From positions 10,702 to 74,701 of the forward strand of contig CAZGMQ010000005.1 of assembly GCA_964526745.1 (NCBI GenBank): a stretch of 64,000 nt of DNA, read 5' to 3'. This DNA is from an uncultured Verrucomicrobiota bacterium (GTDB lineage Bacteria > Verrucomicrobiota > Kiritimatiellia > CAIQIC01 > Lenti-01). The position numbers and the translations under genes are program-made. Positions 15,419 to 53,900 of the stretch are shown here, piece after piece; the stretch's first letter is position 1, and every line of letters begins with the position of its first letter. The notes beneath the pieces were generated by a model, which was given only the letters and a program-made list of their open reading frames with translations, ran no database searches and was not told the DNA's origin.

Positions 15419-15749
15419 GGTTTAACCATAACTGAACTATGGTTCATGTACAATAAACAAAATAGAAGAGGAAGTATTTATATTTTTGGACATAAAAACA
15501 GGCCATAATGTCAATTTTTGGGGGGGCATTTTCAGGGCTGAAAACAGGGGATTATTTCGCTTCATGGTAGGGCGGGTTGGCCCAACCCGCCGTGTGTAAT
15601 CAATACCCGGCGACTTGGGCCAAGTCGCCCCACCCTCCGATCTTCCCCTCCCCATTTGCGCGGGGAAGCCTGACGAGCTTCTCCGCTTGTATCCCGCCAG
15701 AATAAACATCATCCTTGGGGATTAGGAACGGAGACAACCAAGGAGGTGG

Positions 15750-16244
15750 ATGATGAAGACAATCGTTTTGAGTTTTGTGGTGTTGACCTGTCTGTTGGGA
15801 TCGATGGCTTTGGCAGAAGGGAATAAGGTTGAGGGGGATCCGATGATCAAAATCTCCAGCCTCCCTTTTGACGGAGACCTGAAAACGATCATGGCTTCGA
15901 TCAGTGCGGATGTGTCCAAAGACACGGGGCTGCCGGAAACCTTTGTGACCTATTACTGGCAGCACTTCAGCGAGGTCTATTGCCCTGGATGCGAGGGAGG
16001 CGGCCTGAAGTCCGTGATTTTTGTCGATATGTATGTCCCGGCCTTCATGACCGCAGATGAACGCAAACAGGTCATGACCAGCCTGGCCACCGCGCTGGAC
16101 AAATACACGCCATACACAAAGAAAGAAGTCTATATCCACACCCATATCGCCGAAAAAGACCAGCTGTTCATTATGGGCAGCACGGTAACCAACTGGGTGC
16201 AGGTCGGCGGACCGGACGATTCCATCCCCCCCACAAAGGAATAG
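15750..16244 (+). CDS. Hypothetical secreted protein
   Basis: RBS AAGGAGG upstream. Signal peptide MMKTIVLSFVVLTCLLGSMALAEG. CPGCEGGG motif. Confidence 0.5.
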   Translation: MMKTIVLSFVVLTCLLGSMALAEGNKVEGDPMIKISSLPFDGDLKTIMASISADVSKDTGLPETFVTYYWQHFSEVYCPGCEGGGLKSVIFVDMYVPAFMTADERKQVMTSLATALDKYTPYTKKEVYIHTHIAEKDQLFIMGSTVTNWVQVGGPDDSIPPTKE

Positions 16245-16299
16245 AACAATGAAACGTCGACCGGGAGCGTCGTCTCCTTTCTGATTCCAGACGGCCTCA

Positions 16300-16395
16300 G
16301 AGGTGTACTGCGTATCGGCGAACAGGATCTGTAGCTTTTCCCGCAAGTTCAGGGCTGTCTGGATAAGGTCATGCCGGAAGCATAACTGAACCGGC
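16300..16395 (-). pseudogene. Degenerate duplicate of the 5' end (start codon plus about 20 bp leader) of the radical-SAM gene at 14276-15418
   Basis: About 75% nt identity to 15330-15442 (GTACTGCG.ATCGGC...CTGTCTGGAT.AGG.CAT...CATAACTGAAC). Its translation hits a stop after 7 codons (MTLSRQP*). Confidence 0.45.
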
Positions 16396-16444
16396 GATCC
16401 CCTTCAGGAGGAAATTCGTCCCCGTGCCGATATCGGCCACGTCA

Positions 16445-17368
16445 TCAAGCTATCGCGACGCGGTTGCGACCTTCGCGCTTGGCCACATAAAGGGCCGAAT
16501 CCGCGCGGCGGAGCAAAGTCTCGCCGGGCTCTGTGGGACAAAACTCGGCTACGCCGGCGCTAATGGTCACGCTACGGTCCTTCAGTAATTCCGCTTGCTC
16601 CACAGCTTGGCACATTCTCTCGGCCACTTCCCGTGCTTTATTCCTGGGAGTTTCGGGCAGCAAAACAACAAATTCTTCGCCGCCGTAGCGAAAGGCCGTA
16701 TCGGTTGTCCGCACCGTTTGGCTCAGAATGGCCGAAAGTTCAGCCAAAACCCGGTCCCCCACGGTATGCCCTAGTGTGTCGTTGATTTTCTTGAAGTGGT
16801 CCGCATCGATGATAATCAGCGACAGGGGGCGCCCATAGCGAACCCCCCGCTGCACTTCAGATTTGAGTTGTCCTTGAAAGTGCCTATAGTTGAATAGCCC
16901 CGTCAGTTCGTCCCTGATCGCCAGGCGTTCCAGATCTGCAACAAGGCGCTCTTGGATCTCTGCTTGATGCCGCATTTCGCGCGCCTGCTGAATCCTCATG
17001 GTTAATTCGGGTATCCGGATGGGCTTCACGATGAAATCGGCTGCCCCATGCGCCACCGCCGTCTCGTGGGAGTATGTGGAATCGCCCCCTGTGATGAGAA
17101 TGACGATGCAGGAGGTTGTCTTGACGAAATGTCGCATGACCTCGATGCCGCTGATGTCCGGCAAATTGATATCCAACAAAACGATGTCGATGGAACCTTC
17201 TGCTCCCTTTCGTATCGCTTCCTCTCCGGACTTGGCCACGGATACCTCATACCCGGCATCTGATAGTGCGGGGGCAAAGAGATTCAGAATCAACTGATTG
17301 TCGTCTACGATAAGAATGTGCAATGGTGCGATATTCATATATTCCTCATCTGTTCCTAACATGTTCAT
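16445..17368 (-). CDS. Response regulator with GGDEF output domain (diguanylate cyclase, PleD/WspR-like)
   Basis: N-terminal REC (ILIVDDNQ..., conserved Asp region DIVLLDINLPD). C-terminal RYGGEEF active-site motif. Confidence 0.8.
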   Translation of the reverse strand: MNMLGTDEEYMNIAPLHILIVDDNQLILNLFAPALSDAGYEVSVAKSGEEAIRKGAEGSIDIVLLDINLPDISGIEVMRHFVKTTSCIVILITGGDSTYSHETAVAHGAADFIVKPIRIPELTMRIQQAREMRHQAEIQERLVADLERLAIRDELTGLFNYRHFQGQLKSEVQRGVRYGRPLSLIIIDADHFKKINDTLGHTVGDRVLAELSAILSQTVRTTDTAFRYGGEEFVVLLPETPRNKAREVAERMCQAVEQAELLKDRSVTISAGVAEFCPTEPGETLLRRADSALYVAKREGRNRVAIA

Positions 17369-17670
17369 AATATATCCTACCGGTCCCCTGTTTGCTAGAA
17401 GTTAAATTAATAATAATGACAAGCCATTGCTCGGGCCAGAGCAGCTCAACAGAGATCAAGACCCGTCACTCGGGCAGACCATGATTCAGCGGTTGGCCAT
17501 GGCTCAGTTTGATTCACCCCTTCTCCATGGCCATATCGGGCTCAGAATCTGAACACTCCCCCTTATCGAACCCCCAACGAGAACCGGGTTCTCAATCCAA
17601 TTTTCCCCCGCGATTGACATTTATAGACAGGCGGAATACATTATTCTCATTCAACGAAAGGTCCACTGCC

Positions 17671-18354
17671 ATGCAATTGACTGTCAAAGATGCTGCCAAA
17701 GCACTGAGTGTTGCCGAGAAAACCGTATATCGCTGGATTCAGACGGGCGGACTTCCCGCGTATCGTGTGGCCGGTCAATACCGGATCAATCGCGCCATGC
17801 TGTTTGACTGGGCGACCTCCAAGCGCATCAACTTCATGAGCGATGAGCCGGAAGAGGAATCAGTCGCCACGGTGTTGCCGACATTGGCCAGTGCGCTTCA
17901 GGAAGGCGGCATCCATTACCGCGTAGGCGGTGCGGACAAAGCGGAAGTCCTGAAGGCCGTGGTGGACCTGCTGAAACTGCCGGATGCGGTGAACCGCGAC
18001 GTGCTCTACCAGGCGCTGATGACGCGCGAAAAGCTCCAGTCGACCGGCGTGGGCGACGGCATCGGCCTGCCCCATGTGCGGAACCCGGCTGTGCTGGAAA
18101 TCACCACGCCGATGATCTGCCTGTGCTTCCTCGAGGCCCCGATTGAGTTCGGTGCGCTGGACGGCAAGCCGGTTCACATCCTGTTCACCCCCCTCTCCCC
18201 GAATGTGCGGGTTCATCTGCATCTGCTGTCGAGGTTGTCTTTCGCCATGCGCGATCCGACCTTTAAGGGACTCCTGGCCCATGAAGGGCGCCGCGATGAA
18301 ATCATCGATGCCGCGCGGGCGCTGGAGCCGGAAGACAAACAGCCGATCGACTGA
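17671..18354 (+). CDS. Fusion protein: excisionase/MerR-type HTH DNA-binding domain plus PTS EIIA type-2 (PtsN-like) domain
   Basis: N-terminal LTVKDAAKALSVAEKTVYRWIQTGGLPAYRVAGQYRI (HTH_17-like). C-terminal GIGLPHVRNP...HILFTPLSP with the conserved phospho-His region of EIIA-Ntr. Confidence 0.7.
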   Translation: MQLTVKDAAKALSVAEKTVYRWIQTGGLPAYRVAGQYRINRAMLFDWATSKRINFMSDEPEEESVATVLPTLASALQEGGIHYRVGGADKAEVLKAVVDLLKLPDAVNRDVLYQALMTREKLQSTGVGDGIGLPHVRNPAVLEITTPMICLCFLEAPIEFGALDGKPVHILFTPLSPNVRVHLHLLSRLSFAMRDPTFKGLLAHEGRRDEIIDAARALEPEDKQPID

Positions 18355-18420
18355 AGAGACAGGGAAAAATTGGCCCGGTCAGGAGACCGGGAAATTCGCC
18401 ATCCAGATCACGATCTGTTG

Positions 18421-18470: not shown

Positions 18471-21400
18471 CTATTCGGGAATGATCACCTTGACGCGCAT
18501 CATCAGGAAGGTATTGCTGAAGGTCGGCAGTGTGACCTCACCATTCGTGCTGGACAGCGTGGTCTTCGTGGTCCAGTTCCAGACTTGAGAGGTCGGATTC
18601 AGTTCTGTCGCGGTTTGGAGCACATAGTTGCAGATCTGGCCACCGGTCTTGTCGAGGTGCAGCCGCCCCCCACCCAAGCCATTGATGTGGAGATGATCGC
18701 TGTTCGTCGGGTTGGTGCCGGCGAAGTACTCTTCGCGATCGCCGCAGGAATCCGTATCATAGTTGCTGTTGGTCGAGAAAGGATGCCCCGGGGGCAGGCG
18801 GTCTGTAATCCAATAATTCGGCACACCGTACGTCGTGGAGCTGGTTTTCGGACCATCGACCCTCAGGCCGGCCAGGTTCACAAAACTGAAAGCGAAGTTG
18901 CCCCACTCGTCGGGTGGTTCGTTATTGTCCAAAGTGGCATCCGCGCCGAGATACTTGCCGGAGATGAAGCGGTTGTCGTTGCTGGTGGAGCCGGTCACCA
19001 TTAGGCCGGACAGGTACAAATTCGTCAGAGCGGTGGCATTCGACACGCCGAAGGCCGACAGCGGAATGGCCGATTCCCAGTTCGCAGCGAGACGGCTGTC
19101 CGGGCCATAGCCCCCGAATTGCGAAAGGGCGGAGCCCTCCACGGCCACAATGGCATCCATGGCAGTGTCTAATTCGAAAATACCCTGACCGAACTCAAAG
19201 CCGTTGGTTGTATACATCTTGAAATCGAACAGGTCACTGTCGCCATAGACATCTCCGAGCAAGATCGCAATGTTGACAGGCGGCTGGTAGGCCGTGTTGT
19301 GCAGCTGGTTCAACCCCTCGGGGCTGACATTGTAGTTCCACAGGTTGGCGCTGCCCGCATTCGTACCGCCGCTGAGAAACACCATGTAGGCGTTGTTCTG
19401 GCTGTCATCGGGCAGGGCCACGCCCGTGCCGCCGATATACAGGTTCGTTTCATCGTAATTCACATAGATGCTGCCGAAGCTGCCGAAGCCGTTTGTGCCG
19501 CCGGTGGTGGCCGCCCCGCCGGACGTATCGAAGTCGAAGGCATCGTCGAGGTTGTCCGGACTGCCACCGCTGGTGATGACCGGGGTGTGCTCGACCATGT
19601 GCAGGGAGGCGATCCCGCCGAAGATGGCCTGATAGTTCGCTCCACCGTTGTTGTCCCAGACAATCCACGCATTGGAGGTAGTGCCAGACACGCAATACTC
19701 GAACAGAGTTCCATCGGGAAACGACCCGACATCCCGTGCCCAGAGATCATTGTTTCCGATGGTTCCGGACAGGGCCAGTGGTGCGTTCAGCCAGCTGGCG
19801 CCGCCATCAGCGCTGTAGATCAGCGAGACATTCGTGGCCGCGCCAATGGGCCAGGTCTCGCAGGAAATGACCAGCGTATTGGTTGGCGTGATGGAGCCGT
19901 TGAGAGGCATATGGGAGGTGTTTCCAACCCAAAGGGTTTCTTCCCCGCCACCGCCGGACTGCACGACGATGGAGTAGTTGTCACCGCGGTTGTTGTCGAT
20001 ATTGGTCGAAGTGGCGTTGGCCGCTTCAATGGTGTATTCGATCGTGGTGCCAGCGGCAAACAGGCCGAGTTCCGAGCTGTACCACTTGCCATCGTACGAC
20101 GTCCAGTTGGTATTGACGGCCATATACGCCTGGGCCCAGGTGCTGCCGCTGTTGGTGCTGTAGTTCAGGATCACGGAGGAGAGGCCTTCCGCAGGACCGG
20201 CTTCGGTGTTGATATAGAGCGGCGTGTCGTCCATCACTTCGCCGGCGGCGGGATAGCTGTAGGTGCTACGGACCCAGGCGACCGGGTTGGTGTCGCCACC
20301 GTTGCCGCTGCCGCCGGACTGTTCGCCGATCCAGACATGGATGATGTTCGAGCGGTTGGTATTGTTGTTGGAATCCACGGCCTCCACGAAGTAGTCGATC
20401 AGGCAGTTGGTCTGTCCGGCCACCGTGCCCATGTAGCGCTGCGCCCGTTCGCTGGGGGTCGGGACTTGCGGTCCCTGAACGGTCGGCCACCAGTCGGCGG
20501 TCATCGGAACCGCCTGCCAGGCACCCACGCCGGAACCGCCGGCGAACGTTTCGTTCTCGGTGGAGCTGATGGGCCAGTTGCCGTCATTGTCCTTGCGCCA
20601 ATAGAGGGTTGCATGGTCCACGCCGCTGACATCATCCACGAAGGTCCAGACATCGAAGTCCGAGGCCAGGGGTTCGGCTTCGTCCCACATGCGTCCACCG
20701 GGGTTGTAGGGTGTGCGTTGCGGCGGGAAAATGCTGGGGCCGCGACCATCGCCGCCCGTGTGGCGATCGATGACCTTCTGGGCTTCGGCATTGGCGAGGT
20801 TGCAGGCGCGGGTGACATTGCCGTCCCAGGGATTGGCGCGGTCGTAGTCCCAATACCAATAGCAACTCGTTTCGCCGTTCAGATAGAAATGCCAGGCCTT
20901 GGCCGTGTCATTGCCAATGCCCCACTCCACGTCGTTCATATCGCGGCTGCCGGACAGATAGCTGTTTTCCATGTCATCGGCCGTGAACACGCGATTCTGG
21001 GAAGCCACCAGCACACTCCACGACCACATATCCGGCATTTCGCCGCTTCGGTCTTCATAGGAGAGCCACTTCTCATAGTACGGGGTGCCGCCATCGATGC
21101 CGATCCAGCTACCGGGTTCGATGTGGATCACATCGCTGGGGGTCGGGGGATACATGTCCAAATAATCCTGGGCACTGGTGTACTCGAAATCCGGATTGCT
21201 GGCGGTCATGTCCACAAACGCCTGCTGCTGGCCGTTCCAGGCATCGGAGTTCTTCATGCCGTAGTTGTCGCCATCACTGTGGCACAGCAGCAGCATCGGC
21301 TTGTCGGCATTGTTGTTGGCCGCGATTTCACTGCCCCACACATTCTCGGGTTTGAAGGCGCCATAGCCGCCACGACCGTTTTCATTGCCTTCGTAGCGCC

Positions 21401-22241
21401 CGGCAGGCACGGCGACAATCTTCTCGATGTCGCCCGTATACGGATCGACATGGCGCGTGTAGTGCGGCTGGTAGGACCACGGCGCAAGGACCTTGGTCGG
21501 TGCCCACACGTTCTGCAGACCGACCCAGGTGCTGGCCAAATTGGTGGAGGTGCCGTTGCGCACATCCGCGCGGTTGGGTCGGCAGGAACTGCCGCTGTTC
21601 CACTCGAAATCCTCCACCGTGCGGAAGAGGTGGCCGTTATCGACGATGACCCATTCCAGCCCTTCCGCGACCAGCGCGGGAATCATCGAGCTGTCGAAGG
21701 CGCATTCCGGAGGCCAGAAGCCCTTGGAGTAGTCCCCGCCGGTATCCCAGAGATCCTTGTACTGTTCCTTGTGTAACTTGATCTGCATCCGCATCGACTC
21801 CACACTGGTCAGAGGCATCAAGCTGTGATGATAGGCAATGCCCACCACATCCAGACGCGGATTGTTCTCCGTAGTCCTGAGATTGTTGCGCGCATTCCGG
21901 ACGCTGCCGGCCCAGCCGGAGGGATCGCCCCAGATGGTTGAGTTGTTTTCGCCCAGCGAGCCGGAATAGCTCATCTGCGAACCGCCATGACCAAAAGCGC
22001 GGCTCACGGCGCCGGCCGGCCATTCGCGATAGCAGTTGTAGCGGTCGCCATCCCAGACATCGCCTTCGACGTTGAAATTGAAGCGGCTGTTGGCATCCGT
22101 ATTCCGGACGCTCTCATAGGGGTAGTAGATCGGCTGATGCATGTGCCAGAGATGCGTCACATGGATCGGCACCGCCTGGGCGGTCACCGTCGAAAGCAGA
22201 ATGGATCCCAGAATCAACAGTTTTGTCATGGTCATTTTCAT
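18471..22241 (-). CDS. Giant secreted GH57-family-like glycoside hydrolase with repeated CBM-like modules
   Basis: Signal peptide MKMTMTKLLILGSILLSTVTAQA. GH57 region I WHMHQPIYY, region III WPPECAF (putative nucleophile Glu), region IV CHSDGDNYG. About 3 modules of about 100 aa end in WDNNGGANY / DNNRGDNY, and a conserved module is shared with the next gene. Confidence 0.7.
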   Translation of the reverse strand: MKMTMTKLLILGSILLSTVTAQAVPIHVTHLWHMHQPIYYPYESVRNTDANSRFNFNVEGDVWDGDRYNCYREWPAGAVSRAFGHGGSQMSYSGSLGENNSTIWGDPSGWAGSVRNARNNLRTTENNPRLDVVGIAYHHSLMPLTSVESMRMQIKLHKEQYKDLWDTGGDYSKGFWPPECAFDSSMIPALVAEGLEWVIVDNGHLFRTVEDFEWNSGSSCRPNRADVRNGTSTNLASTWVGLQNVWAPTKVLAPWSYQPHYTRHVDPYTGDIEKIVAVPAGRYEGNENGRGGYGAFKPENVWGSEIAANNNADKPMLLLCHSDGDNYGMKNSDAWNGQQQAFVDMTASNPDFEYTSAQDYLDMYPPTPSDVIHIEPGSWIGIDGGTPYYEKWLSYEDRSGEMPDMWSWSVLVASQNRVFTADDMENSYLSGSRDMNDVEWGIGNDTAKAWHFYLNGETSCYWYWDYDRANPWDGNVTRACNLANAEAQKVIDRHTGGDGRGPSIFPPQRTPYNPGGRMWDEAEPLASDFDVWTFVDDVSGVDHATLYWRKDNDGNWPISSTENETFAGGSGVGAWQAVPMTADWWPTVQGPQVPTPSERAQRYMGTVAGQTNCLIDYFVEAVDSNNNTNRSNIIHVWIGEQSGGSGNGGDTNPVAWVRSTYSYPAAGEVMDDTPLYINTEAGPAEGLSSVILNYSTNSGSTWAQAYMAVNTNWTSYDGKWYSSELGLFAAGTTIEYTIEAANATSTNIDNNRGDNYSIVVQSGGGGEETLWVGNTSHMPLNGSITPTNTLVISCETWPIGAATNVSLIYSADGGASWLNAPLALSGTIGNNDLWARDVGSFPDGTLFEYCVSGTTSNAWIVWDNNGGANYQAIFGGIASLHMVEHTPVITSGGSPDNLDDAFDFDTSGGAATTGGTNGFGSFGSIYVNYDETNLYIGGTGVALPDDSQNNAYMVFLSGGTNAGSANLWNYNVSPEGLNQLHNTAYQPPVNIAILLGDVYGDSDLFDFKMYTTNGFEFGQGIFELDTAMDAIVAVEGSALSQFGGYGPDSRLAANWESAIPLSAFGVSNATALTNLYLSGLMVTGSTSNDNRFISGKYLGADATLDNNEPPDEWGNFAFSFVNLAGLRVDGPKTSSTTYGVPNYWITDRLPPGHPFSTNSNYDTDSCGDREEYFAGTNPTNSDHLHINGLGGGRLHLDKTGGQICNYVLQTATELNPTSQVWNWTTKTTLSSTNGEVTLPTFSNTFLMMRVKVIIPE

Positions 22242-22357
22242 CCGGAATCTCTCCCACGCATCCACGATCTGCTCTACCGGGGGCGATGACCCCGGCACTC
22301 CGTTGCATTCACCATCACCGGTCTCATCGCGACCGGCTGAATTCAGTCAAACGCTGG

Positions 22358-25300
22358 TTAGTTCCCGATGCGGGCGAAGTTTTCGCTGTAGGTATCGGCA
22401 TCGCCCCACTCGAAGGAGGAGTTGTAGGTCTCCACGCCCGGGGTGTCGGAGGTGCCGGAGCTGTTCGGGATGGTATCCATTGCTGACAGCGACCCCGCGC
22501 CCAGCATCACTGCGATGCCCGTGGATTCCAACTGCGCCTTTGTGATGCCGATGGAGGCCATCGGTATCTTCATCTCATAGAAACTGTCACGGTCCGTGCG
22601 GGCATGACCGGAAGTCTTGAAATTCGTAAACGTGCCGCTATCGTTGACGCGGTCGTCACAGTCCCACACGCCGTAAGCGTCACTAGCGATCAATGCAGCG
22701 CTGTTGGCCACATCGATGCCCCAGCCAGCGGTGGTGTTATAGGTCGTGCCCAGTTCCGTATCCCCGGCCCAGGTATCGCTCGACAGTGCCGTGGACATAT
22801 AGGACTGCCACAGGCTGCCGGCCATGTAGATCTGGTAGTCTGGCAGATTCACGCCGGACCAGTGGTTGCTCTTGGTCCACATATCACCGCCGATGCCGCT
22901 ATTGCCGCCACTCTTGGTGTCCAGCGCCGCCCAGATCAGGATGCCGTCATTGCGGCTGATGGGATCGCCGCCGCCCGCGTTGGACGGATCGACCACGTCG
23001 GTCACATCCACCATCTGCCAGGCGATATACACATTGTCGTCATCCCAGCAGGCCCAGAGATGAGAGAAGTCCAGCGGGGCTTCGTGCATCGTCCAGTTTT
23101 CGCCGAGGCTGCGAGGGTCGTCATTCACCACATCCAGCGCGATCAGCATGCTGTCCGTCCACTCGCCGCCCGTGTTATCCCCATCAATGGTGATGCCGCT
23201 GGCGCGGTACAGCCCCTTGGTCGGGTTCGTCGAATACGGCAGGTCACCGCCACCGCCGCCATTCACACTGATGCTGTAGTTGTTGTTGTTGTTGTTGTTC
23301 CAGGTGGGATTGCCCTGCCCGTCCGTCGCGACCAGCGCGTACTGGACCGTTGTGCCGGCGCTGAATCCGCTACCGAGATTGATCGACCAGGTGTCATTGC
23401 TGGCGTTCGCCGTGCCTGCGGTCATATCCGTGCTGGTCCAGGTGGAGCCGCCGTCCGAGCTATACGCGATTCCAGCGGAAACCGCCGCGTTCAGCGGAGC
23501 CGTCTCAAAAGAGATCGCCAGGGCTTCGCCCGCGTCCCAGGCGCCGCCGGTCGGATCGGTGCCGACATTCCCGGTCCAGGAAATCTGCAGACTGGCTTCG
23601 GTCCTTGTGAAGGTATAGACCTTCTGAGTGGTGACCCCGTTGATGGTGCTGCCATCCAGCGTCAGGGTGCGGCTCGCATCCACGGCCAGGCCGTCGCCGA
23701 ACACGATCGTGTCGCCATTCACATAGTCCGTGGCGCTGCCGCCTTCCACGGTATAGGTGGAGGAGGTCACATTCACGCCACTCACACTCAAGGTCACGGT
23801 CACGTTCGAACTGCTGAAAGAGCCGCCCGGAGGCGTGGCACTGACCGACACACTGTCAACCGGCTGGTTCACGGGCGGCACATTGACACGCACCCGCATC
23901 ATATAGCTCGCGACATCCAGGCTGGGCATGTCCATCGCCCCGTCGAGGCTGACCGCCGTAGCGCGAGGCGTCCAGTTCCAGTTGCCGTCAATGACTTCGT
24001 CCGCGGTATCCACCACGTAGCTGCAGGCCTGTCCGCCGACCTTGTAGACCGCCATCCGGCCGCCGCCCTGGCTCAGAATCACCAGAGAATCATTGGTGGT
24101 CGGATCCAAGCCCGCGAAATACGCGTGTCGGTCCGGTCGGCCGTCACTGTTGAAGTCGCTCGTATCTGTGAGGACGTAGCCCGGGGGGAAATTCGTCGAA
24201 ACCCACGAGTCCGGCACGCCCAGATCGGCATTCCCGCTCTGCGGCGGAAGGACCTTGGTCCCGCCGAGGTTCACAAAGCTGAAGGCAAAATTACCGTACT
24301 CATCGGCGACTTCCTCATTACCCAACGTGGCGCTGTCGCCGAGATACCGTCCGGAGATGAAGCGGTTGTTGCTGTTGGTGGGATTGGTGTCGCCCGTGAC
24401 CATCAGCCCCGACACATAGAGGTTGGTCAGGTCCGAGGCGTTGGTCACCCCGAAGGTCGCCAGCGGAATGGCACACTCCCAGTTCGCGGCCAGGCGGCTG
24501 TCCATGCCGTAGCCGCCGAACTGCGAAATCGCCGCGCCGTCCACTGCGGCGAACGTGGAGGCCCCCGCTGCTGTCGAGAAGACACCCTGGCCGAAGTCGA
24601 ACCCACCGCCCACATACATTTCAAAGTTGGTGAAGGTTCCATCGCCATATACATCGCCCAGCAGAATGGCGAGATTCACACTAGGCTGGAACGCCGCGTT
24701 GTGCGTGTTGTCGAGGCCGTAGGGAGCGCCGGTGGGACCCCAGAAGTTGGGTGATCCTTCGTTTGTTCCGCCGCCCAGCATGACCATGTAGGCGTTGTTC
24801 TGGCTGTCATCGGGCAGGGCCACACCCGTGCCGCCGATATACAGGTAGGTCTCGTCGTAATTCACATAGATACTGCCGAAGCTACCGAAGCCGTTGGTTC
24901 CGCCTGTGGTGGCGGCGCCACCGGTCGTGGCGAAATCGAATTCATCATCCGGATTGTCCGGCGTGGTGCCCGGGTTTCCATCATTGATGACCGGCGTATG
25001 TTGCACCATCCGCAGGCCGCCGACTTCACCGACGATAATCTGATGGTTGCTGCCGCCGTTGTTGTCCCATTCTTCCCGGGTCGCAGACTGGGAGAAGATA
25101 GCATACGAAACCACGGTTCCGTCGGCAAAGGAGCCCATGTCAACCGTCCAGGTGTCATTGTTGCCATTGGTCGCCCCCATCGTGAAGAGCGCCGCCTGCC
25201 AGTTCGCTCCGGCATCGGTGCTGAAGGCCATCCCGACATTCGTTGCGGCGCCGATCGGCCAGGTTTCCGCCGTCAGCACCACGGTATCGGCCGGGGTGAC

Positions 25301-27766
25301 CGTTCCATTCTCAGGCGTCTGATCCGTCAGGCCCACCCAGAGGTCGTTGGAGTTGCTGCCGCCGCCGGTCACAGTCACCGAATAATACAGGCCGTTGTTG
25401 TCGTCCATGTTCGTGGTCACGCCATCGGTGGCTTCGATGTAGAACTGGACCGTCGTGTCCGCAGCGAACAGGCCCAGGTTCAGATTGTACCACTCGCCGC
25501 CATCCGAGCCCCAGGCCGGATTGAACGTCATGTTGGTCGGCAACCATGTCGCCCCGGCATCCGTCGAATAGACGGTGCTGATGCGCGTCACACTGCCGGA
25601 CGGGCCGGCTTCGGAGTTCACATAGAAATCGGTCGCATCGGTGACTGCGCCATCCAGCGGATCGTGACTGGTCCCGCGGATCCAGACGCCATCGGGGGCA
25701 TTGACCGTCAGGAAATAGTTGGCCCCGCCGTTGTTGTCCCAAATTTTATTGTCCGAGGCATCGGCGATTTCGACATAATATTCAATGACAGTGTCGGCTG
25801 GATAGGTCCCGAGACGCACACCATACCAAGTGCCGTCCTGACTCACACCGTTGGTTTCGACCATGGGCAGCACATTCCATGTGCTGCCGCCATCGGCGCT
25901 AAAGCCCAGCGTGGCGCTGGCCACCACACCGGTTGGGCCGGCTTCGGTATTGATGAAAATCGGCGTCACGGCCGTGATATCACCATTGACGGGTTCGCTC
26001 TGGGTGCTGCGGACCCACATCTCGGGCTCCGACACACCGGCTACAAAAATCTTGGTTTCCTTGCCGCTCAAGGTGACGGCAATCGTGCCGCCGCTGGAGG
26101 TGACGCTTTCGCTTTCATTCAGCGCATTGACAAACACGGTTCCGTCCGGCTTATCCACCGCCGGACTGATCGAGACGCTGCCGTCGGAGGTATTCAGAGC
26201 CACCAGCGACTCTTCATCATCATAGACACGGCTGAAAGCATAGGCGCCGGCACTGCCGGTCTGATAGCGCTCACTGAAGGACCCGCGGGTCAGACTCTTG
26301 TGATTGGCGCGGGCGTTGTTGAGCGCAGCGATGTGCTGATACAGGGGGGCATCGGTCGCGGCCAGCTTGTTGCCCTGCGCCGGACCGGGCTGGAAGCCGC
26401 GATCAAACATGCATTCGCGCTGCCAGTCCGCATCGTCATAGTCGGTGCCGGCATTGCTGCCGTTCCAGTGGCCGCCTTGCTGGAAGGCGTGCTCGGTGCC
26501 GTAGAACAGACAGGGGACTGGAGTCGCCAGATACAGGAAGCTCAGCGCCGGACGCATGTCCCAGACGATGTTGCCGACATCGCCACCATCCTGCAGGCCG
26601 ATGCGGTTCACATCATGATTGTCAATAAACGTCACCAGACGGTTCGCGCCTTCGCCATATCCACTCTTGGCGTCCAGACTCTGCGTCAACTGGCCCGTCC
26701 AGCCGTCATCCACAAACACGCTCTTGATCGTCTGGCTCATCGGGAAGAAGAGCGCCGCGTTGAACGAGTAGTCGGAGTCTTTGCAGTAGCTCGCCAGCGT
26801 GTTGTTGTCGTACGAGAAATATTCGCCGAACAGGATAAAGTCATTCTTGCCACGGAACGCCGCATGCTGACGGATGCCGTCGGCCCAGGCCTTGATCCAG
26901 TCATATTCCACATGCTTGATGGCATCCACGCGGAAGCCGTCGCAGTCGGTCGCGTCGATCAGATTCTTGAAGGCCTGATCCAGCCAGCCCTGCACGTTCG
27001 AGTCCTCGGTCTTTAGATCGTCCGTGCCCTTGAACTGGCCATAGATATATTCCGGATAGCTGTCCCAGTTGTTGATCGTGCCGTTGTTGTGGAACCACTG
27101 CAGGTCGTTGAAAGGCGCGGCATGCTGATTGCCGGAGTCCCACCAGCTGAAATTGTTTCCACCGCTGGGATGATAGTACTTGTCGTCCGTGCCGTCGGGC
27201 AACCCGTTCTTGTCGGCCATGTGGTTGATGACCACATCCAACACCACATAGATGCCGCGGGCGTGGCAGGCGTCGATCAGGTCGGTCAGCTCCTGGAACG
27301 TGCCCATCGTCGGATCGCACTTGAAGAAGTCGGTCGGGTGATACATGTGATACGGCGTGTAGTTCGGGTCCTTGCCCTGGTCGTTCATCTGGACGCCGGA
27401 CATCCAGATCGCCTTGACGCCCATGCCGCTGAGGTAATCGAGATTATCCTTTAACCCTTTCCAGTCCCCGCCGTGATGGAAATTGCGGTTGTCCGGAAAA
27501 CTGCGCGTGCCGACATACCAGGAAGGCTCGATGTTGTTGTTGGCGGTGTCGCCGTCGGCGAAGCGATCGGTGAACAGCTGATACATGTTGATATCCCGCC
27601 AATCCTCCGGACTGGGCGTGTAGGTGAATCCGGGGTCGCTGTCGACCCGGGACCGCAGTCCGTAGGTCGCATCGCTGGCGCCATAGGGCCATTGACCAAA
27701 TACTGTTGACGCGACCATGGCCGCACAGAGGATCCACAAGTTCAGCTTCATCGACTTCATTTTCAA
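22358..27766 (-). CDS. Giant secreted GH13 alpha-amylase-family enzyme with at least 4 tandem CBM25-like modules
   Basis: Signal peptide. GH13 regions VLDVVINHM, GFRVDAIKHV (nucleophile Asp), FGEYF (acid/base Glu), FIDNHD. Four about 100-aa repeats of the form YS.DGG.TW...WY...G.F..GT...Y..E..D...WDNNGG.NY. Confidence 0.8.
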   Translation of the reverse strand: MKMKSMKLNLWILCAAMVASTVFGQWPYGASDATYGLRSRVDSDPGFTYTPSPEDWRDINMYQLFTDRFADGDTANNNIEPSWYVGTRSFPDNRNFHHGGDWKGLKDNLDYLSGMGVKAIWMSGVQMNDQGKDPNYTPYHMYHPTDFFKCDPTMGTFQELTDLIDACHARGIYVVLDVVINHMADKNGLPDGTDDKYYHPSGGNNFSWWDSGNQHAAPFNDLQWFHNNGTINNWDSYPEYIYGQFKGTDDLKTEDSNVQGWLDQAFKNLIDATDCDGFRVDAIKHVEYDWIKAWADGIRQHAAFRGKNDFILFGEYFSYDNNTLASYCKDSDYSFNAALFFPMSQTIKSVFVDDGWTGQLTQSLDAKSGYGEGANRLVTFIDNHDVNRIGLQDGGDVGNIVWDMRPALSFLYLATPVPCLFYGTEHAFQQGGHWNGSNAGTDYDDADWQRECMFDRGFQPGPAQGNKLAATDAPLYQHIAALNNARANHKSLTRGSFSERYQTGSAGAYAFSRVYDDEESLVALNTSDGSVSISPAVDKPDGTVFVNALNESESVTSSGGTIAVTLSGKETKIFVAGVSEPEMWVRSTQSEPVNGDITAVTPIFINTEAGPTGVVASATLGFSADGGSTWNVLPMVETNGVSQDGTWYGVRLGTYPADTVIEYYVEIADASDNKIWDNNGGANYFLTVNAPDGVWIRGTSHDPLDGAVTDATDFYVNSEAGPSGSVTRISTVYSTDAGATWLPTNMTFNPAWGSDGGEWYNLNLGLFAADTTVQFYIEATDGVTTNMDDNNGLYYSVTVTGGGSNSNDLWVGLTDQTPENGTVTPADTVVLTAETWPIGAATNVGMAFSTDAGANWQAALFTMGATNGNNDTWTVDMGSFADGTVVSYAIFSQSATREEWDNNGGSNHQIIVGEVGGLRMVQHTPVINDGNPGTTPDNPDDEFDFATTGGAATTGGTNGFGSFGSIYVNYDETYLYIGGTGVALPDDSQNNAYMVMLGGGTNEGSPNFWGPTGAPYGLDNTHNAAFQPSVNLAILLGDVYGDGTFTNFEMYVGGGFDFGQGVFSTAAGASTFAAVDGAAISQFGGYGMDSRLAANWECAIPLATFGVTNASDLTNLYVSGLMVTGDTNPTNSNNRFISGRYLGDSATLGNEEVADEYGNFAFSFVNLGGTKVLPPQSGNADLGVPDSWVSTNFPPGYVLTDTSDFNSDGRPDRHAYFAGLDPTTNDSLVILSQGGGRMAVYKVGGQACSYVVDTADEVIDGNWNWTPRATAVSLDGAMDMPSLDVASYMMRVRVNVPPVNQPVDSVSVSATPPGGSFSSSNVTVTLSVSGVNVTSSTYTVEGGSATDYVNGDTIVFGDGLAVDASRTLTLDGSTINGVTTQKVYTFTRTEASLQISWTGNVGTDPTGGAWDAGEALAISFETAPLNAAVSAGIAYSSDGGSTWTSTDMTAGTANASNDTWSINLGSGFSAGTTVQYALVATDGQGNPTWNNNNNNNYSISVNGGGGGDLPYSTNPTKGLYRASGITIDGDNTGGEWTDSMLIALDVVNDDPRSLGENWTMHEAPLDFSHLWACWDDDNVYIAWQMVDVTDVVDPSNAGGGDPISRNDGILIWAALDTKSGGNSGIGGDMWTKSNHWSGVNLPDYQIYMAGSLWQSYMSTALSSDTWAGDTELGTTYNTTAGWGIDVANSAALIASDAYGVWDCDDRVNDSGTFTNFKTSGHARTDRDSFYEMKIPMASIGITKAQLESTGIAVMLGAGSLSAMDTIPNSSGTSDTPGVETYNSSFEWGDADTYSENFARIGN

Positions 27767-50929: not shown

Positions 50930-53900
50930 CTATTCGACCGCGATACGGTAGAACCGCTTCACATCCACTGCCATATTGGTGTCTGACAAAGTGATGTCGC
51001 TCCCAGTGCCGTATACGTCATTGGTCACCAGGAACCAGTCCACGGGGACGACCGTGAGGTTTGTGCTGTAGTCCATCCGGTACTTCTGCCCCAGGATGGA
51101 GTAGAAGGTGGCAGAAGCAGGGACGCCGTTGGAGACCACAAGCGCTCCCACCTGCGGCAGCGGATAGACAAAGACCCCCACGGCCTCGCCGTCGCTCCCG
51201 TCTTTGTCGGCGGCGTAGAACACCACGCTGTATTCGCCCGTCGGCGTGGCGGGCGACCAGACGAATGTCCCCAACTCATTGGTCGGATAGAACACCGCAC
51301 CTGGCGGCATGTTGCTGACGGTCAACGTCACGGGGTCGCTCTCCGTCGGGGTGGCCGACACGTGGAACTGCAGGGGATGGCCCAAGAAGACCTCCTGGCC
51401 GCCGATCACGCCTAGCACCGGCGGCGTTCCCACTTCTTCGACTAAGCCGTATTCCACCTGGAAGTTGTCAATCAGCAGGCGCTCGCCGCCCGCAATCTTA
51501 TGGATTTCCAACCAAAGGGTACGATCGTCCACGGGTTGAAGATCAATGGGGCCGGAGTCGTACTCCTGATAGACCTTATCCGCCGCAAACCAATCCCCGT
51601 TGGTGGTGTACAGAGTAGTATAGTTGGTGCCGAAGTCCGTGCTGTACCTAATTTCAAAGTCCATGACCGGACTGTTATCCCAGCGGGCCAACTGGACCGT
51701 CAGTCGCGTGATGTTGGTTCTCACGCCGTATCGCAGATAGGTTTCTTCAACATTTTGCAGGCGCCAGGCATTGCTGGTGACGGAATACACGGTATCTCGC
51801 ACGGCAAGATTGGAAGCAAAGGCATCGGCCACTGGATTGGTGGAGTCGTTATCAAAAGTTTTGGCATTATAGCTGGTGCCAGTTCCCCCGCCCCACATGG
51901 AGGTGTCGTCAAAGGTCTCCAGATAAACCAGCGAAGGCGCATTGCTCACGCCAACGACAATATCGATGGTGTCCTCATCCGAGCCGTCCAGGTCCGAAGC
52001 GATAAAGGTCACGCTGTAAGTCCCGGTCGGCGATGCATTCGTCCAGAGAAATGTGCCCAGTTCGTTCGTCGGATAAAAGGCCGCCCCTTCAGGCAGGTTG
52101 GTTACCGTCAGTGTGACGGTATCGCCATCGGTCGACGTGGCCACCACCTCAAACTGAAGGGTGTTGCTGACGATGACCATGCGGTCACCGACCGGATTCA
52201 GGACGGGGGGGCTCGGCAGCGGCGGGCCGGAACAGTCACTCGTGTGTGTGCCCAGTCCATCAAATGTGTTCTGTGAAAAGCCGCTCCATTCCAGAGCCGG
52301 ATCATAGGCGTCCGAAGGGTCGAGATCGCCCTCCTCCACAGTCGACATCCGGCGCAGGGTGTGTTCAGCGGTAGAGACAATTCCGGTGCCCCATTCGGTC
52401 CCGGGATTGTAGCCGACCTGACCGATGGAATCCAGCACGGTGCCGCTGGCACCACCGCTTCGCAGCACAAAAGCATCATTGCCATCGTAGGTCATGCTGC
52501 CACTGGTCATGTCGGACACCGCCAGAACAGAAGCATCCGCCGAACCGTTCGCCAGCACAAAGACGGCCTGGGCGGGAATGGCACCGGTCAGACTTATGGT
52601 GTGGGTCGGTGAATTGGTCCCGTTGGAATAGATCTGCACCACGTACTGCCCGGCATCCAGATCCAGGGGCGCCAGGGATGGATTATAGATCTCCAGCGCC
52701 TTGTTATTCCCGGTGCCTTCCACGTACTCCGAAATCAGCACCGCGCAATTGGTATTTTCGTAGGGGGGTGTTTCCACGCGAATGGTGATGGAGGTGCTGG
52801 CGGTGCCGTCCTTGTCCTCCGCATAAAAGCTGACCGAATATATGCCGGTCGGGGTGGCGCTCTCCCAGATGAAGGTACCCAGGCCGTTGGTGGCCGGGAA
52901 GGTCGAACCGGAGGGCAGATTGCTCACCGTGAGCGTAATGGGATCACCATCGCTCGGGTCCGTGGCCGTGACCGCAAAACTCAGGAGATTGCTCTCCAGG
53001 ACGTCCTGATGATTCAGTGCATCGAACAGCGGCGGCTGATCGCCCTGACAGCATTCGACATCCACCGCCGTCACCGAAAGGGACCAGCCCGACAGGATGA
53101 TCCCTGCATATCCCGCCTCGACATCCTGCGCATAGAGGCTCCAGGTGCCGTTGGGTGTACCGCCATTGAAGTCCGACATCGCCGCGCCATAGGGAGGAGC
53201 CGGGGCCGGGGCATTCATTTCTTCGGCGGTGCCGGAAGGTTGGAAGGTGCCGGAAGTCAGCGCCGCACCGACTGGCAAGGCTGCGTCATCATCAAATGTC
53301 ATCGTCAGGTTGGTTACCGGAGTATCTCCCCCATCCGCTCCGATCAGCGAGACGGCATCGCCATCCGGACTGACGAGAATCACGTCGATGTCTTCAGGGT
53401 AGTCATGGGCAAACCCATGCAGGGTGGCCGTCACGTTGCGGATGCTTCCCGGCAGGTTGGAAATAGCGATGCTGGAAGGGAACGGATCCGCCGAAGCCCC
53501 ATCAGTCAGGGTAATCACGACGCTGTTGGTGAGCGTCAATGCGGTTTCCATTTCGGCCCCCAGCGTGAAGACAAACGGCACCGTCCCCAGTGCCAGACCA
53601 TTGTCATCCAGAGAGAGTGTAGCCGTCAGTTGGCCCCCGCATTGGCCTGTTGCGGCAAAAGAAAAAGAATTGGTGACGGGAGCTCCCCCCGCCAGAAGAG
53701 CGCCATAGCTCATCGGCCCGTCCGGCCCGGTCACTCCGCCGGTCGGCTCCAGCGTAGCGATGACATTGGTCGTATCCGCCGTACCGATATTCTGCAGTAC
53801 AAAATCCACTGTTACAGTTTCATTGGGGTCGATCGCCCCGTTCCCGACCGCACCACAGCTTTCTGCCGTGACAACGGCCTCAACAGCATCAATGTATGCG

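What the first reader, a model, noticed from the sequence alone, without database searches (positions are those of the whole stretch)
18471..27766. Tandem operon of two giant secreted alpha-glucan enzymes (1802-aa GH13 then 1275-aa GH57-like) studded with repeated W-DNNGG-NY CBM-like modules
Two co-directional minus-strand genes separated by only 117 nt (5.4 kb and 3.8 kb) encode signal-peptide proteins. The upstream gene carries all four GH13 catalytic regions (VLDVVINHM, GFRVDAIKHV, FGEYF, FIDNHD). The downstream gene carries GH57 regions I, III and IV (WHMHQPIYY, WPPECAF, CHSDGDNYG). Both are extended by at least 3-4 tandem modules of about 100 aa that end in WDNNGG(A/S)NY, which I associate with CBM25-type starch-binding domains, plus further uncharacterised C-terminal domains. 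Pairing GH13 and GH57 catalytic domains in two megaproteins of this size suggests a cell-surface-anchored or secreted starch/glycogen-degrading machine rather than ordinary amylases. The extra C-terminal domains have no obvious assignment.
Basis: partly seen in the sequence, partly recalled or inferred. Interest (0 to 1): 0.7.

Follow-up and report, generated by a model that had tools for sequence, protein, structure and literature searches.

The report
Paired giant secreted starch-degrading enzymes
Two adjacent genes of an uncultured Kiritimatiellia-type bacterium encode very large secreted starch-cutting enzymes, one of the common amylase family and one of a rarer family, both carrying several starch-gripping modules; they are real and well built, but belong to a known kind of raw-starch-degrading system.

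Summary
Window 22358-27760(-) encodes a 1800-aa GH13 enzyme (A). Window 18471-22241(-) encodes a 1256-aa enzyme (B) with a GH57-type catalytic unit. They lie 116 nt apart with no terminator-like site between them, and a terminator-like hairpin follows B. Both start with signal-peptide-like sequences, keep their catalytic residues, and have full-length orthologues in more than 20 other assemblies, so they are not assembly artefacts.

The "unassigned" C-terminal parts can now be named. A ends in a true CBM74 starch-binding module. A and B share a roughly 700-aa block (49% identity). The block holds Asp-box-containing starch-binding-like repeats, a roughly 250-aa domain with a CBM74/CBM9 fold, and a thrombospondin-type-3 calcium loop followed by a small beta-sandwich.

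The closest known system is the tandem MaAmyA/MaAmyB pair of Microbacterium aurum. Verdict: a new member of a known kind, of moderate interest.

The parts
22358..27760 (-). Gene A: 1800-aa secreted multi-domain GH13 enzyme (the ORF extends to a TTG at 27766)
   Evidence: ORF. Pfam PF00128, E 4e-44. An identical 1800-aa gene call on JGI contig L001. 22 orthologue clusters covering 99-100% of its length.
27692..27760 (-). A signal-peptide-like N-terminus (MKSMKLNLWILCAAMVASTVFG|Q)
   Evidence: Read from the translation. This is an inference; no signal-peptide predictor was available.
26021..27691 (-). A GH13 catalytic module (aa 26-582), with catalytic D281, E315 and D385
   Evidence: Pfam. Motif positions. 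Closest solved relatives are CGTases and GH13 amylases, E about 1e-40.
25031..26020 (-). A repeats R1-R3 (aa 583-912): three tandem modules of about 108 aa with an Asp-box-like motif (exact SxDxGx[ST]W in R1 and R2; R3 has STDAGANW) and a WDNNGG.NY-type ending
   Evidence: Alignment A3. The profile matches the Lmo2446 N-domain (1.5e-5) and CBM21 of PPP1R3 (8e-5), but CBM25 only at E 0.36. No Pfam hit for these three modules.
24257..25030 (-). A domain X (aa 913-1170): a module with the CBM74/CBM9 fold
23876..24256 (-). A domain Y (aa 1171-1297): TSP3-type Ca loop (DFNSDGRPD...YFAGLDP) plus a small beta-sandwich
23582..23875 (-). A domain Z (aa 1298-1395): probable Ig-like linker domain preceding R4 and CBM74
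   Evidence: Conserved in 73 relatives. No Pfam hit. The fold is inferred from sequence character only.
23249..23581 (-). A repeat R4 (aa 1396-1506): a starch-binding module, CBM20 by Pfam
   Evidence: PF00686, 26.9 bits against a cutoff of 23.3.
22361..23248 (-). A C-terminal CBM74 (aa 1507-1802)
   Evidence: phmmer against Sas6 CBM74 7uwv/7uwu, E 3e-15. Profile E 5e-29, aligned at both ends through to ...ARIG; the H289/E290 equivalents are conserved as H1561/E1562.
22242..22357 (-). A-B intergenic spacer (116 nt) with GGGAGAG 7 nt before the ATG of B, and no terminator-like site on the minus strand
18471..22241 (-). Gene B: 1256-aa secreted enzyme with a GH57-type catalytic unit (the ORF extends to a GTG at 22298)
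   Evidence: ORF. Pfam PF03065, 49 bits. P0001/P0241 are 100% identical 1256-aa gene calls.
22173..22241 (-). B signal-peptide-like N-terminus (MKMTMTKLLILGSILLSTVTAQA|VP)
   Evidence: Read from the translation. This is an inference.
20295..22172 (-). B conserved 626-aa catalytic unit: (beta/alpha)7-type barrel, helical region, and beta-sandwich R0. Nucleophile E198 and donor D342 in GTG numbering (E179/D323 from the ATG).
19605..20294 (-). B repeats R1-R2 (aa 669-898), the same module type as A R1-R4
18864..19604 (-). B domain X (aa 899-1145), homologous to A's X
   Evidence: A 607-1297 aligns with B 584-1274 at 49% identity over 705 aa. Alignment A1.
18474..18863 (-). B C-terminal domain Y (aa 1146-1275)
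   Evidence: A weak NCBIfam Amuc_1099_fam hit (E 0.01) at aa 1157-1201.
18374..18391 (-). Terminator-like hairpin (CCCGGTC-TCCT-GACCGGG followed by a T-rich tail) about 80 nt after the stop of B
   Evidence: This is a pattern match only; the total count of such sites in the region is not above the shuffles.
17509..18354 (+). Convergent neighbour: HTH_17 + PTS EIIA-2 regulator-like gene. It holds the same position in five related species-level loci. Relatives are 225 aa, so the true start is probably downstream of 17509.
   Evidence: Pfam. Synteny. A functional link to the pair is inferred only.

Best explanation
The region is a two-gene transcription unit of a Kiritimatiellia-type (PVC) bacterium. 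It encodes two very large exported enzymes that attack insoluble alpha-glucan, most likely granular or resistant starch.

**Gene A.** A is a GH13 alpha-amylase-type hydrolase with an intact Asp-Glu-Asp triad. It is followed by three starch-binding-like repeats, a CBM74/CBM9-fold module (X), a calcium-loop plus beta-sandwich module (Y), an Ig-like domain, a CBM20-type module and a true CBM74.

**Gene B.** B is a retaining alpha-glucanase with a GH57-type barrel (GH57/GH119 clan; Glu nucleophile, Asp acid/base). It carries two of the same repeats plus X and Y.

**Proposed working (inferred).**
1. Both proteins are exported through Sec.
2. Their many binding modules hold them on the granule surface. 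CBM74-type grooves bind long or double-helical chains, and the small modules bind single chains.
3. The two unrelated catalytic modules then cut in synergy, in the way shown for the tandem MaAmyA/MaAmyB pair of Microbacterium aurum.

**Shown versus inferred.** Gene structure, domain identities, folds, catalytic residues and conservation of the gene pair are shown. Export, substrate, synergy, co-transcription and any cell-surface retention through Y are inferred.
For: **Genes and catalytic modules.**
- ORFs and motifs.
- GH13 and GH57 Pfam hits above threshold.
- The Glu and Asp align with TLGT E123 and D214 and are invariant in 20 relatives down to 31% identity.

**Binding modules.**
- CBM74 in A: E 3e-15 for the single sequence and 5e-29 for the profile.
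- X has the CBM74/CBM9 fold.
- R4 is CBM20.
- The repeats sit in the CBM20/21/25 neighbourhood. Homologues of B carry CBM53/CBM25 at the same position.

**Operon and conservation.**
- 116-nt gap with no terminator-like site, and a hairpin after B.
- The GH13-then-GH57-like tandem is conserved in L001, L002/L003/L025, L006, L008 and L012.
- A third giant GH13 with a C-terminal Y-like domain lies in the same window.

**Precedents.**
- CBM74 binds granular starch and double helices, and normally sits in multi-modular GH13 enzymes next to CBM25/26 (bioRxiv 10.1101/2022.11.20.514607).
- MaAmyA and MaAmyB are a tandem pair with a shared block of accessory domains (PMC5093618).
Against: - There is no experimental activity for any member of either clade.
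- The GH13 subfamily is unassigned, and its closest solved relatives are CGTases, so transglycosylation is not excluded.
- GH57-clan enzymes have several specificities: amylase, amylopullulanase, branching enzyme, 4-alpha-glucanotransferase.
- Several ligand-contacting residues of Sas6 CBM74 are not conserved in the HMM alignment (F326 to Gly, Y524 to Gly, K556 to Trp).
- X has no sequence-level match to any solved CBM.
- Most repeats fail every Pfam CBM threshold.
- An orthologue of A stands without a GH57-like partner in L004/L005, and L007 has B without A, so the pairing is not obligatory.
- No maltodextrin transporter or other starch-use gene is adjacent.
- The promoter and terminator scans are not above chance.
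Confidence: 0.72

Rival explanations
1. B is not an endo-alpha-amylase. It has another GH57-clan specificity (amylopullulanase or debranching enzyme, maltose-forming exo-amylase, or 4-alpha-glucanotransferase). On this reading the pair combines chain cutting by A with debranching or disproportionation by B.
Against: The only characterised enzyme of the GH57-related small family GH119 is an alpha-amylase (PMC6037648, PMC3663571). Branching enzymes and glucanotransferases of GH57 are normally cytoplasmic and lack starch-binding modules (background knowledge). B has a signal-peptide-like start and starch-binding-type modules.
Confidence: 0.25
2. A is a CGTase-like transglycosylase, producing cyclodextrins or other transfer products, rather than a hydrolytic amylase.
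For: The best solved relatives of the A catalytic module are cyclodextrin glucanotransferases (1cyg E 6e-40 and many others). Regions III and IV (FGEYF, FIDNHD) resemble the CGTase versions; this comparison rests on background knowledge and was not tested.
Against: Alpha-amylases score nearly as well (43wj 6.6e-37, Anoxybacillus amylase 6e-35). The match to most CGTases stops around aa 430 of A, whereas 1cyg aligns to aa 594 of A. The canonical CGTase D and E (CBM20) domains do not follow the C domain; the repeats do. No NCBIfam model comes near its cutoff.
Confidence: 0.1
3. The natural substrate is not plant starch but another insoluble alpha-glucan available in anoxic reactors and sediments, such as algal or cyanobacterial starch-like granules, or glycogen from lysed cells.
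For: Several related MAGs have reactor- or sludge-style isolate names (for example AnMBR.bin255); their source environments were not looked up. The family of B occurs in marine and freshwater Planctomycetota, Myxococcota and Ignavibacteria. The CBM21-type similarity is to glycogen-targeting subunits.
Against: CBM74 is linked experimentally to granular and resistant starch (bioRxiv 10.1101/2022.11.20.514607). Soluble glycogen would not need so many binding modules (inference).
Confidence: 0.3
4. The long ORFs are assembly artefacts, or chance ORFs in GC-rich DNA.
For: The window is 57-61% G+C and has long antisense ORFs of 825, 716 and 672 aa inside these very genes.
Against: Identical proteins occur on an independent contig. 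Dozens of full-length orthologues exist. Pfam domains, confident structure models and conserved catalytic residues all agree. The antisense ORFs have no family match.
Confidence: 0.01

Closest known systems
MaAmyA / MaAmyB of Microbacterium aurum B8.A, a tandem pair of giant raw-starch amylases (PMC5093618)
   Same: Two very large secreted starch enzymes are encoded head-to-tail on the same strand. The first is a GH13 enzyme with several small starch-binding modules and a CBM74. The two proteins share a duplicated block of non-catalytic domains. The source there was a potato wastewater treatment plant; here several related MAGs carry reactor-style isolate names.
   Different: - The second enzyme here has a GH57-type catalytic unit, not GH13_42.
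- The shared block is old: 49% amino-acid and about 69% DNA identity, against more than 99% in M. aurum.
- The small modules are not canonical CBM25.
- Each protein has an extra CBM74/CBM9-fold domain (X) and a TSP3-loop domain (Y).
- The host is a diderm PVC bacterium, not an actinobacterium.
- The GH13 subfamily is unassigned.
CBM74 as in Ruminococcus bromii Sas6 (PDB 7uwv, 7uwu; bioRxiv 10.1101/2022.11.20.514607)
   Different: - CBM74 is described as mostly from gut Bifidobacteria and Firmicutes; here it is in a PVC lineage.
- F326, Y524 and K556 are not conserved in the alignment.
- W373 could not be placed.
- X has no detectable sequence match to solved CBM74s and is shorter (about 250 aa).
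GH57 enzymes (for example Thermococcus litoralis 4-alpha-glucanotransferase 1k1w, Thermotoga AmyC 2b5d) and the related small family GH119 (Bacillus circulans alpha-amylase)
   Different: - B is only 13-16% identical to solved GH57 structures.
- Single-sequence E is 0.1, and Pfam GH57 covers only about 85 residues.
- B is exported and carries binding modules.
- The conserved unit is 620 aa and includes a C-terminal beta-sandwich.
- Whether it falls within GH119 was not testable here.
Ruminococcus bromii amylosome and other multi-CBM resistant-starch systems
   Same: Multivalent starch binding through CBM74 plus small modules is combined with several amylases in one organism. The window encodes three giant amylase-family proteins.
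   Different: No dockerin or cohesin modules were found. No evidence of complex assembly exists. The recurring C-terminal Y domain is the only candidate for a shared attachment element.

Membership tests
GH13 (protein A) | Alpha-amylase-type catalytic domain recognised by the family model | tested here: met
   PF00128, E 4e-44, 152 bits against a cutoff of 22, aa 63-490. 249 PDB GH13 chains match at E <= 0.01.
GH13 (protein A) | Conserved regions I-IV with the catalytic Asp (II), Glu (III) and Asp (IV) | tested here: met
   VLDVVINHM at 175, GFRVD281AIKHV, FGE315YF, FIDNHD385.
GH13 (protein A) | Assignment to a numbered subfamily (for example GH13_32 or GH13_28, the usual carriers of CBM74) | not testable with these tools
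   No dbCAN-sub or CAZy models were available. No NCBIfam equivalog comes near its cutoff.
GH57 (protein B) | Family model hit | tested here: met
   PF03065, 49 bits against a cutoff of 21.2, but only aa 141-224, corresponding to profile positions 95-174 of 291.
GH57 (protein B) | (beta/alpha)7 barrel followed by a helical bundle | tested here: met
GH57 (protein B) | Catalytic nucleophile Glu (CSR-3) and proton-donor Asp (CSR-4) | tested here: met
   E198 aligns with TLGT E123, and D342 with D214. Both are invariant in alignment A2.
GH57 (protein B) | All five conserved sequence regions, and sequence similarity at family level | tested here: inconclusive
   CSR-1 (HQP), CSR-2 (PRLDVVG), CSR-3 and CSR-4 are recognisable. 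CSR-5 could not be placed with confidence (the candidate is SCYWYWD at 478). Identity to solved GH57 structures is only 13-16%, and phmmer E is 0.1.
GH119 (protein B) | Significant similarity to the founding alpha-amylase of Bacillus circulans, or a GH119 HMM hit | not testable with these tools
   No GH119 sequence, HMM or structure was reachable. Leads only: GH119 was reported in a verrucomicrobial bin (PMC3663571), and GH119 is described as related to GH57 with shared conserved regions (PMC5347038). Searches for named Paenibacillus or Corallococcus relatives found none among the top hits.
CBM74 (A aa 1507-1802) | Sequence similarity to characterised CBM74 across the domain, and a size of about 300 aa | tested here: met
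   phmmer E 3e-15. Profile E 5e-29, with both N- and C-terminal halves aligned. Length is 296 aa.
CBM74 (A aa 1507-1802) | Conservation of the starch-groove residues of Sas6 (H289, F326, W373 and the H-bonding residues) | tested here: inconclusive
   H289/E290 are conserved (H1561/E1562). F326 aligns to Gly, Y524 to Gly and K556 to Trp. W373 falls in the unaligned middle part.
CBM74 (domain X in A and B) | Homology to CBM74 | tested here: inconclusive
CBM25 (repeat modules) | Family model hit (PF03423) or similarity to a solved CBM25 | tested here: not met
   No PF03423 hit at E <= 10 for the five window modules scanned (A R1-R4, B R2). Among 29 relatives, 7 give weak hits, best E 0.0019. The profile matches CBM25 2c3v at E 0.36, below CBM21 (8e-5) and the Lmo2446 N-domain (1.5e-5).
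CBM20 (module R4 of A) | Family model hit above the gathering score | tested here: met
   PF00686, 26.9 bits against 23.3, but only the C-terminal half of the model. The other modules do not reach it.
Known C-terminal sorting signals (PEP-CTERM, LPXTG, T9SS CTD) | Model hit, or a terminal motif followed by a hydrophobic helix and a basic tail | tested here: not met
   No NCBIfam or Pfam hit for such models on either whole protein at E <= 0.1. The termini read ...YSENFARIGN and ...FLMMRVKVIIPE. Short signals can escape HMM filters.

The most novel reading that the evidence does not exclude
Four linked possibilities make up the most novel reading the evidence allows.
1. The 620-aa catalytic unit of B represents a large, wholly uncharacterised family of exported alpha-glucanases, found in at least 562 species across the PVC phyla, Myxococcota and Ignavibacteria. 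It would be either a much-expanded GH119 or a new GH family in the GH57 clan.
2. Domain X would found a new starch-binding CBM family related to CBM74/CBM9.
3. The Asp-box repeats would found a second new starch-binding family.
4. The recurring C-terminal Y domain (TSP3 loop plus sandwich, also at the end of the third giant amylase in the window) would be a PVC-specific element that retains these enzymes on the cell surface or joins them. That would give an amylosome-like machine in diderm anaerobes.
Probability: 0.2. Interest if true: 0.6.

Novelty: new member of a known kind. Interest (0 to 1): 0.4.

Why it matters
Few bacteria are known to degrade granular or resistant starch, and the known ones are almost all Gram-positive gut or soil organisms.

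This locus, and its conservation in related MAGs, suggest that uncultured Kiritimatiellia-type bacteria carry a comparable and heavily armed toolkit. Several of those MAGs have reactor-style isolate names. One 64-kb window holds three giant amylase-family proteins, CBM74 and a CBM74-like domain.

The work also flags three things for CAZy-type classification and enzyme discovery:
- a widespread, uncharacterised group of exported GH57-clan enzymes;
- the unclassified binding module X;
- the unclassified Asp-box repeats.

None of this overturns current understanding. It extends a known design to a new phylum and a new pairing of catalytic families.

Tried and rejected
**1. Deciding GH57 versus GH119.** Nothing gave a GH119 reference or a named Paenibacillus, Cohnella or Corallococcus relative, so the question stays open.
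- The key GH119 paper and the 2014 review are not held. Papers that mention GH119 give no sequence motifs.
- Cluster look-ups of 20 distant representatives gave only unnamed MAG proteins: Phycisphaeraceae, Sumerlaeia, Caldiserica.
- A profile search with the two most distant groups (A4) again returned Verrucomicrobiota: Terrimicrobiaceae, Haloferula, Rubellicoccus.
- The Glu-to-Asp spacing (144) is close to what I recall for the GH119 founder (142). That is memory, not a test.

**2. CBM25 assignment of the repeats.** Rejected by Pfam and by the PDB profile search.

**3. Recent gene conversion between A and B as the source of the shared block.** Rejected. DNA identity is about 69% over 1 kb.

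**4. Naming the source organism.**
- Look-ups returned only a JGI metagenome contig, sample 3300025586.
- The best species-level genome match is 82% (L006, an uncultured Verrucomicrobiota bin).
- The Kiritimatiellia assignment rests on the names of the nearest NCBI homologues.

**5. Promoter and terminator scan.** The counts are not above the shuffles. Only the hairpin after B is mentioned, as a pattern match.

**6. Antisense ORFs inside the genes.** They have no family match.

Full report
**1. The observation**

They run from 22358 to 27766 (1802 codons from a TTG) and from 18471 to 22298 (1275 codons from a GTG).

The likely real starts are ATG codons.
- A starts at 27760, giving 1800 aa (MKSMKLNLWILCAAMVASTVFGQ...).
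- B starts at 22241, giving 1256 aa (MKMTMTKLLILGSILLSTVTAQA...). GGGAGAG lies 7 nt upstream of this ATG.
- Independent gene calls on a JGI metagenome contig use the same starts and give identical proteins.

With these starts the intergenic gap is 116 nt. No terminator-like site lies in it on the minus strand. A GC-rich hairpin with a T-rich tail sits about 80 nt after the stop of B. That is a pattern match only, because the scan as a whole is not above its shuffles.

Pfam gives PF00128 for A (E 4e-44) and PF03065 for B (49 bits against a cutoff of 21.2, but only aa 141-224).

Two lines of evidence rule out artefacts.
- A has 22 database clusters at 60-67% identity over 99-100% of its length, with lengths of 1782-1806 aa. 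B has 23 at 63-79%.
- The long antisense ORFs inside the genes have no family match.

**2. Anatomy**

*Shared block.* A BLASTP of A against B shows that the unrelated catalytic heads are followed by a shared block. A 607-1297 aligns with B 584-1274 at 49% identity over 705 aa. At the DNA level only about 1 kb of this block is alignable, at about 69% identity, so the duplication is old.

*Domain maps.* I mapped segments onto 240 homologues.
- A: signal peptide; GH13 (26-582); repeats R1-R3 (583-912); X (913-1170); Y (1171-1297); Z (1298-1395); R4 (1396-1506); C-terminal domain (1507-1802).
- B: signal peptide; catalytic part (43-544); R0 (545-668); R1-R2 (669-898); X (899-1145); Y (1146-1275).

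In all 119 homologues of B long enough to show it, the catalytic part and R0 occur together as one conserved unit of about 620 aa. The modules after that unit vary. Many relatives carry Pfam CBM53, CBM25, fn3 or TSP3 there.

*The end of A is a CBM74.*
- A single-sequence search against the PDB hits only the CBM74 of Ruminococcus bromii Sas6 (7uwv, 7uwu; E 3e-15). Both the N- and C-terminal halves align, up to the shared ...ARIG ending.
- A profile of six PVC versions raises this to E 5e-29.
- The H289/E290 pair of Sas6 is kept (H1561/E1562).
- F326, Y524 and K556 align to Gly, Gly and Trp, and W373 lies in the unaligned middle.
- So family membership is clear, but the details of the binding site are not.

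*Domain X.* X has no sequence match in the PDB or Pfam. An AlphaFold model of A 905-1300, built on 30 sequences, has pLDDT 84.
- Foldseek's only significant PDB hits are the Sas6 CBM74 entries (E 3.4e-5, prob 0.99), then CBM9.
- Profile-profile comparison of X with the CBM74 alignment gives 77% probability over 57 columns.
- X is therefore a divergent member of the CBM74/CBM9 fold group.

*Domain Y.* Y is a thrombospondin-type-3 calcium loop (DFNSDGRPD...YFAGLDP) followed by a small beta-sandwich. The sandwich gives only generic matches.

*The repeats.* The repeats share an Asp-box-like motif and a WDNNGG.NY-type ending. The exact SxDxGx[ST]W form occurs in A R1, R2 and R4 and in B R2.
- Their profile matches the N-terminal domain of Lmo2446/cycloalternan-forming enzyme (1.5e-5) and the CBM21 of glycogen-targeting PPP1R3 subunits (8e-5 to 2.5e-4).
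- It matches a solved CBM25 only at E 0.36.
- Only R4 passes a Pfam threshold (CBM20, 26.9 against 23.3 bits).
- They are best described as unclassified members of the CBM20/21/25 starch-binding neighbourhood, not as CBM25.

**3. The catalytic unit of B**

A library-wide HMMER search found 493 representative clusters at E <= 1e-3, of which 159 are at E <= 1e-30.

A pattern scan of one genome per species found at least 562 genomes encoding a relative.
- Verrucomicrobiota and Kiritimatiellia match at 54-82% identity.
- Planctomycetota and Phycisphaerae match at about 45%. These include the cultured Botrimarina hoheduenensis.
- Myxococcota, Ignavibacteria, Sumerlaeota and others also carry relatives.

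Several residues are invariant in 20 relatives down to 31% identity. They include Q and P of the HQP motif, the Glu of WPPECAF and DGDN. A profile of these sequences reaches GH57 structures: 1k1w at 6e-8, 7e1y at 4e-6 and 2b5d at 0.34. In those alignments the Glu and Asp fall on the catalytic E123 and D214 of the Thermococcus enzyme.

B is thus a GH57-clan retaining enzyme by fold and catalytic machinery. The low identity and the partial Pfam hit are what one would expect of the sister family GH119. That family is described as sharing fold, conserved regions and catalytic residues with GH57 (PMC6037648, PMC5347038), and it has been reported in a verrucomicrobial bin (PMC3663571). I could not reach any GH119 reference sequence or model, so this stays untested.

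**4. Context**

*Conservation of the pair.* The GH13-then-GH57-like tandem recurs in several loci: L001 (identical), L002/L003/L025 (A 47% identical), L006, L008 and L012.
- The flanking genes are kept as well, namely a PLP enzyme, a phosphodiesterase, and a radical-SAM gene downstream of the regulator.
- An HTH_17 + PTS-EIIA2 regulator-like gene sits convergently downstream of B in those loci that extend that far.
- The pairing is not universal. An orthologue of A stands alone in L004/L005, L007 has B without A, and more distant phyla lack the GH13 partner.

*Other context in the window.*
- The window encodes a third giant amylase-family protein at 55350-63932(-), 2860 codons. Its N-terminal domain matches GH13 alpha-amylases such as those of Bacillus licheniformis and Pyrococcus woesei (E down to 6.5e-25). 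It also has a C-terminal Y-like domain (E 1.3e-11).
- The remaining genes are housekeeping genes. HypD and an H+-pyrophosphatase would fit an anaerobe.
- The nearest named homologues are Kiritimatiellia MAGs.

**5. Mechanism**

*Shown:* gene structure, domain identities and folds, intact catalytic residues, and conservation of the pair.

*Inferred:*
- Both proteins are exported by Sec. No lipobox is present. No PEP-CTERM, LPXTG or T9SS model hit either whole protein.
- Their many binding modules fix them to insoluble alpha-glucan.
- CBM74-type grooves take long or double-helical chains, as shown for Sas6 (bioRxiv 10.1101/2022.11.20.514607).
- The two different catalytic modules act in synergy.

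Y ends B, the third amylase and several GH13 relatives (P0144, P0163, P0228). That makes it a candidate retention or assembly element. In A it is internal, which argues against a strictly terminal sorting signal.

**6. Comparison and verdict**

The closest known system is the MaAmyA/MaAmyB pair of Microbacterium aurum. It consists of two giant amylases encoded in tandem on the same strand. The first is GH13 with CBM25 modules and CBM74, and the two share a duplicated accessory block. It came from a starch wastewater plant (PMC5093618).

The present locus differs in five ways:
- the partner is a GH57-clan enzyme;
- it has the extra X and Y domains;
- its repeats are unclassified;
- the duplication is old;
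- the host is a PVC bacterium.

CBM74 is reported as mainly a feature of gut Bifidobacteria and Firmicutes. Its wide presence in PVC GH13 proteins is therefore a modest extension: 116 distinct CBM74 segments came from the 120 listed homologues.

I rate the locus a new member of a known kind, with interest 0.4. The open points that could raise it are:
- the family status of B's catalytic unit;
- whether X and the repeats are new CBM families;
- the role of Y.

Noticed in passing
window 55350-63932 (-): A third giant amylase-family ORF of 2860 codons (about 2817 aa from the first plausible Met). It has an N-terminal GH13 domain (Pfam E 4.5e-11) whose best PDB hits are alpha-amylases such as 3bc9 and Pyrococcus woesei 1mwo (E down to 6.5e-25). 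It also has a bacterial TSP3 repeat and a C-terminal domain homologous to Y of A and B (E 1.3e-11). It has no R, X or CBM74 modules.
   Followed up: partly
loci L010, L014, L015, L017, L018, L024, L049, L053: In several Verrucomicrobiota genomes a second, distant paralogue (26-30% identity) of the 620-aa GH57-type unit lies a few kb upstream, on the same strand as the close homologue of B (about 8 kb in L053). A profile of such distant groups finds 1487 proteins at E <= 1e-30, mostly from Verrucomicrobiota.
   Followed up: partly
window 25031-26020, 23249-23581, 19605-20294 (repeat modules): Each starch-binding-like repeat has an Asp-box or near-Asp-box motif (exact SxDxGx[ST]W in A R1, R2, R4 and B R2). 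The repeats give weak Pfam hits to Reelin subrepeat B and BNR. A link between the Asp-box and starch binding is unexplained.
   Followed up: partly
window 19299-21776 (+), 22604-24754 (+), 24998-27016 (+): Very long antisense ORFs (825, 716 and 672 aa) lie inside genes B and A. They have no Pfam match and are probably shadow ORFs of GC-rich coding DNA.
   Followed up: yes
window 48318-50861 (+): An 847-aa ORF fuses an M14 zinc carboxypeptidase domain (E 2e-50) to a C-terminal FGE-sulfatase (formylglycine-generating-enzyme-like) domain (E 1.4e-45). This is an unusual combination.
   Followed up: no
window 50930-54007 (-): A 1025-aa ORF with a lamin-tail domain above the Pfam cutoff and weaker proprotein-convertase P-domain and Big_9 matches that did not pass as stretches on their own. 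It is probably another large exported protein next to the third amylase.
   Followed up: no
window 15600-17368 (-): A response-regulator/GGDEF gene and a 248-aa ORF with no family match sit between the radical-SAM gene and the HTH-EIIA2 gene. These two genes are direct neighbours in the related loci L002, L006, L007, L008 and L012, so this looks like a local insertion.
   Followed up: partly
loci L004 and L005 (Kiritimatiellia GCA_035327585.1): The orthologue of A (63% identical, same architecture) has no GH57-like partner. A GDE_C/MGH1-like (amylo-alpha-1,6-glucosidase-type) gene lies about 1.3 kb downstream on the opposite strand.
   Followed up: no
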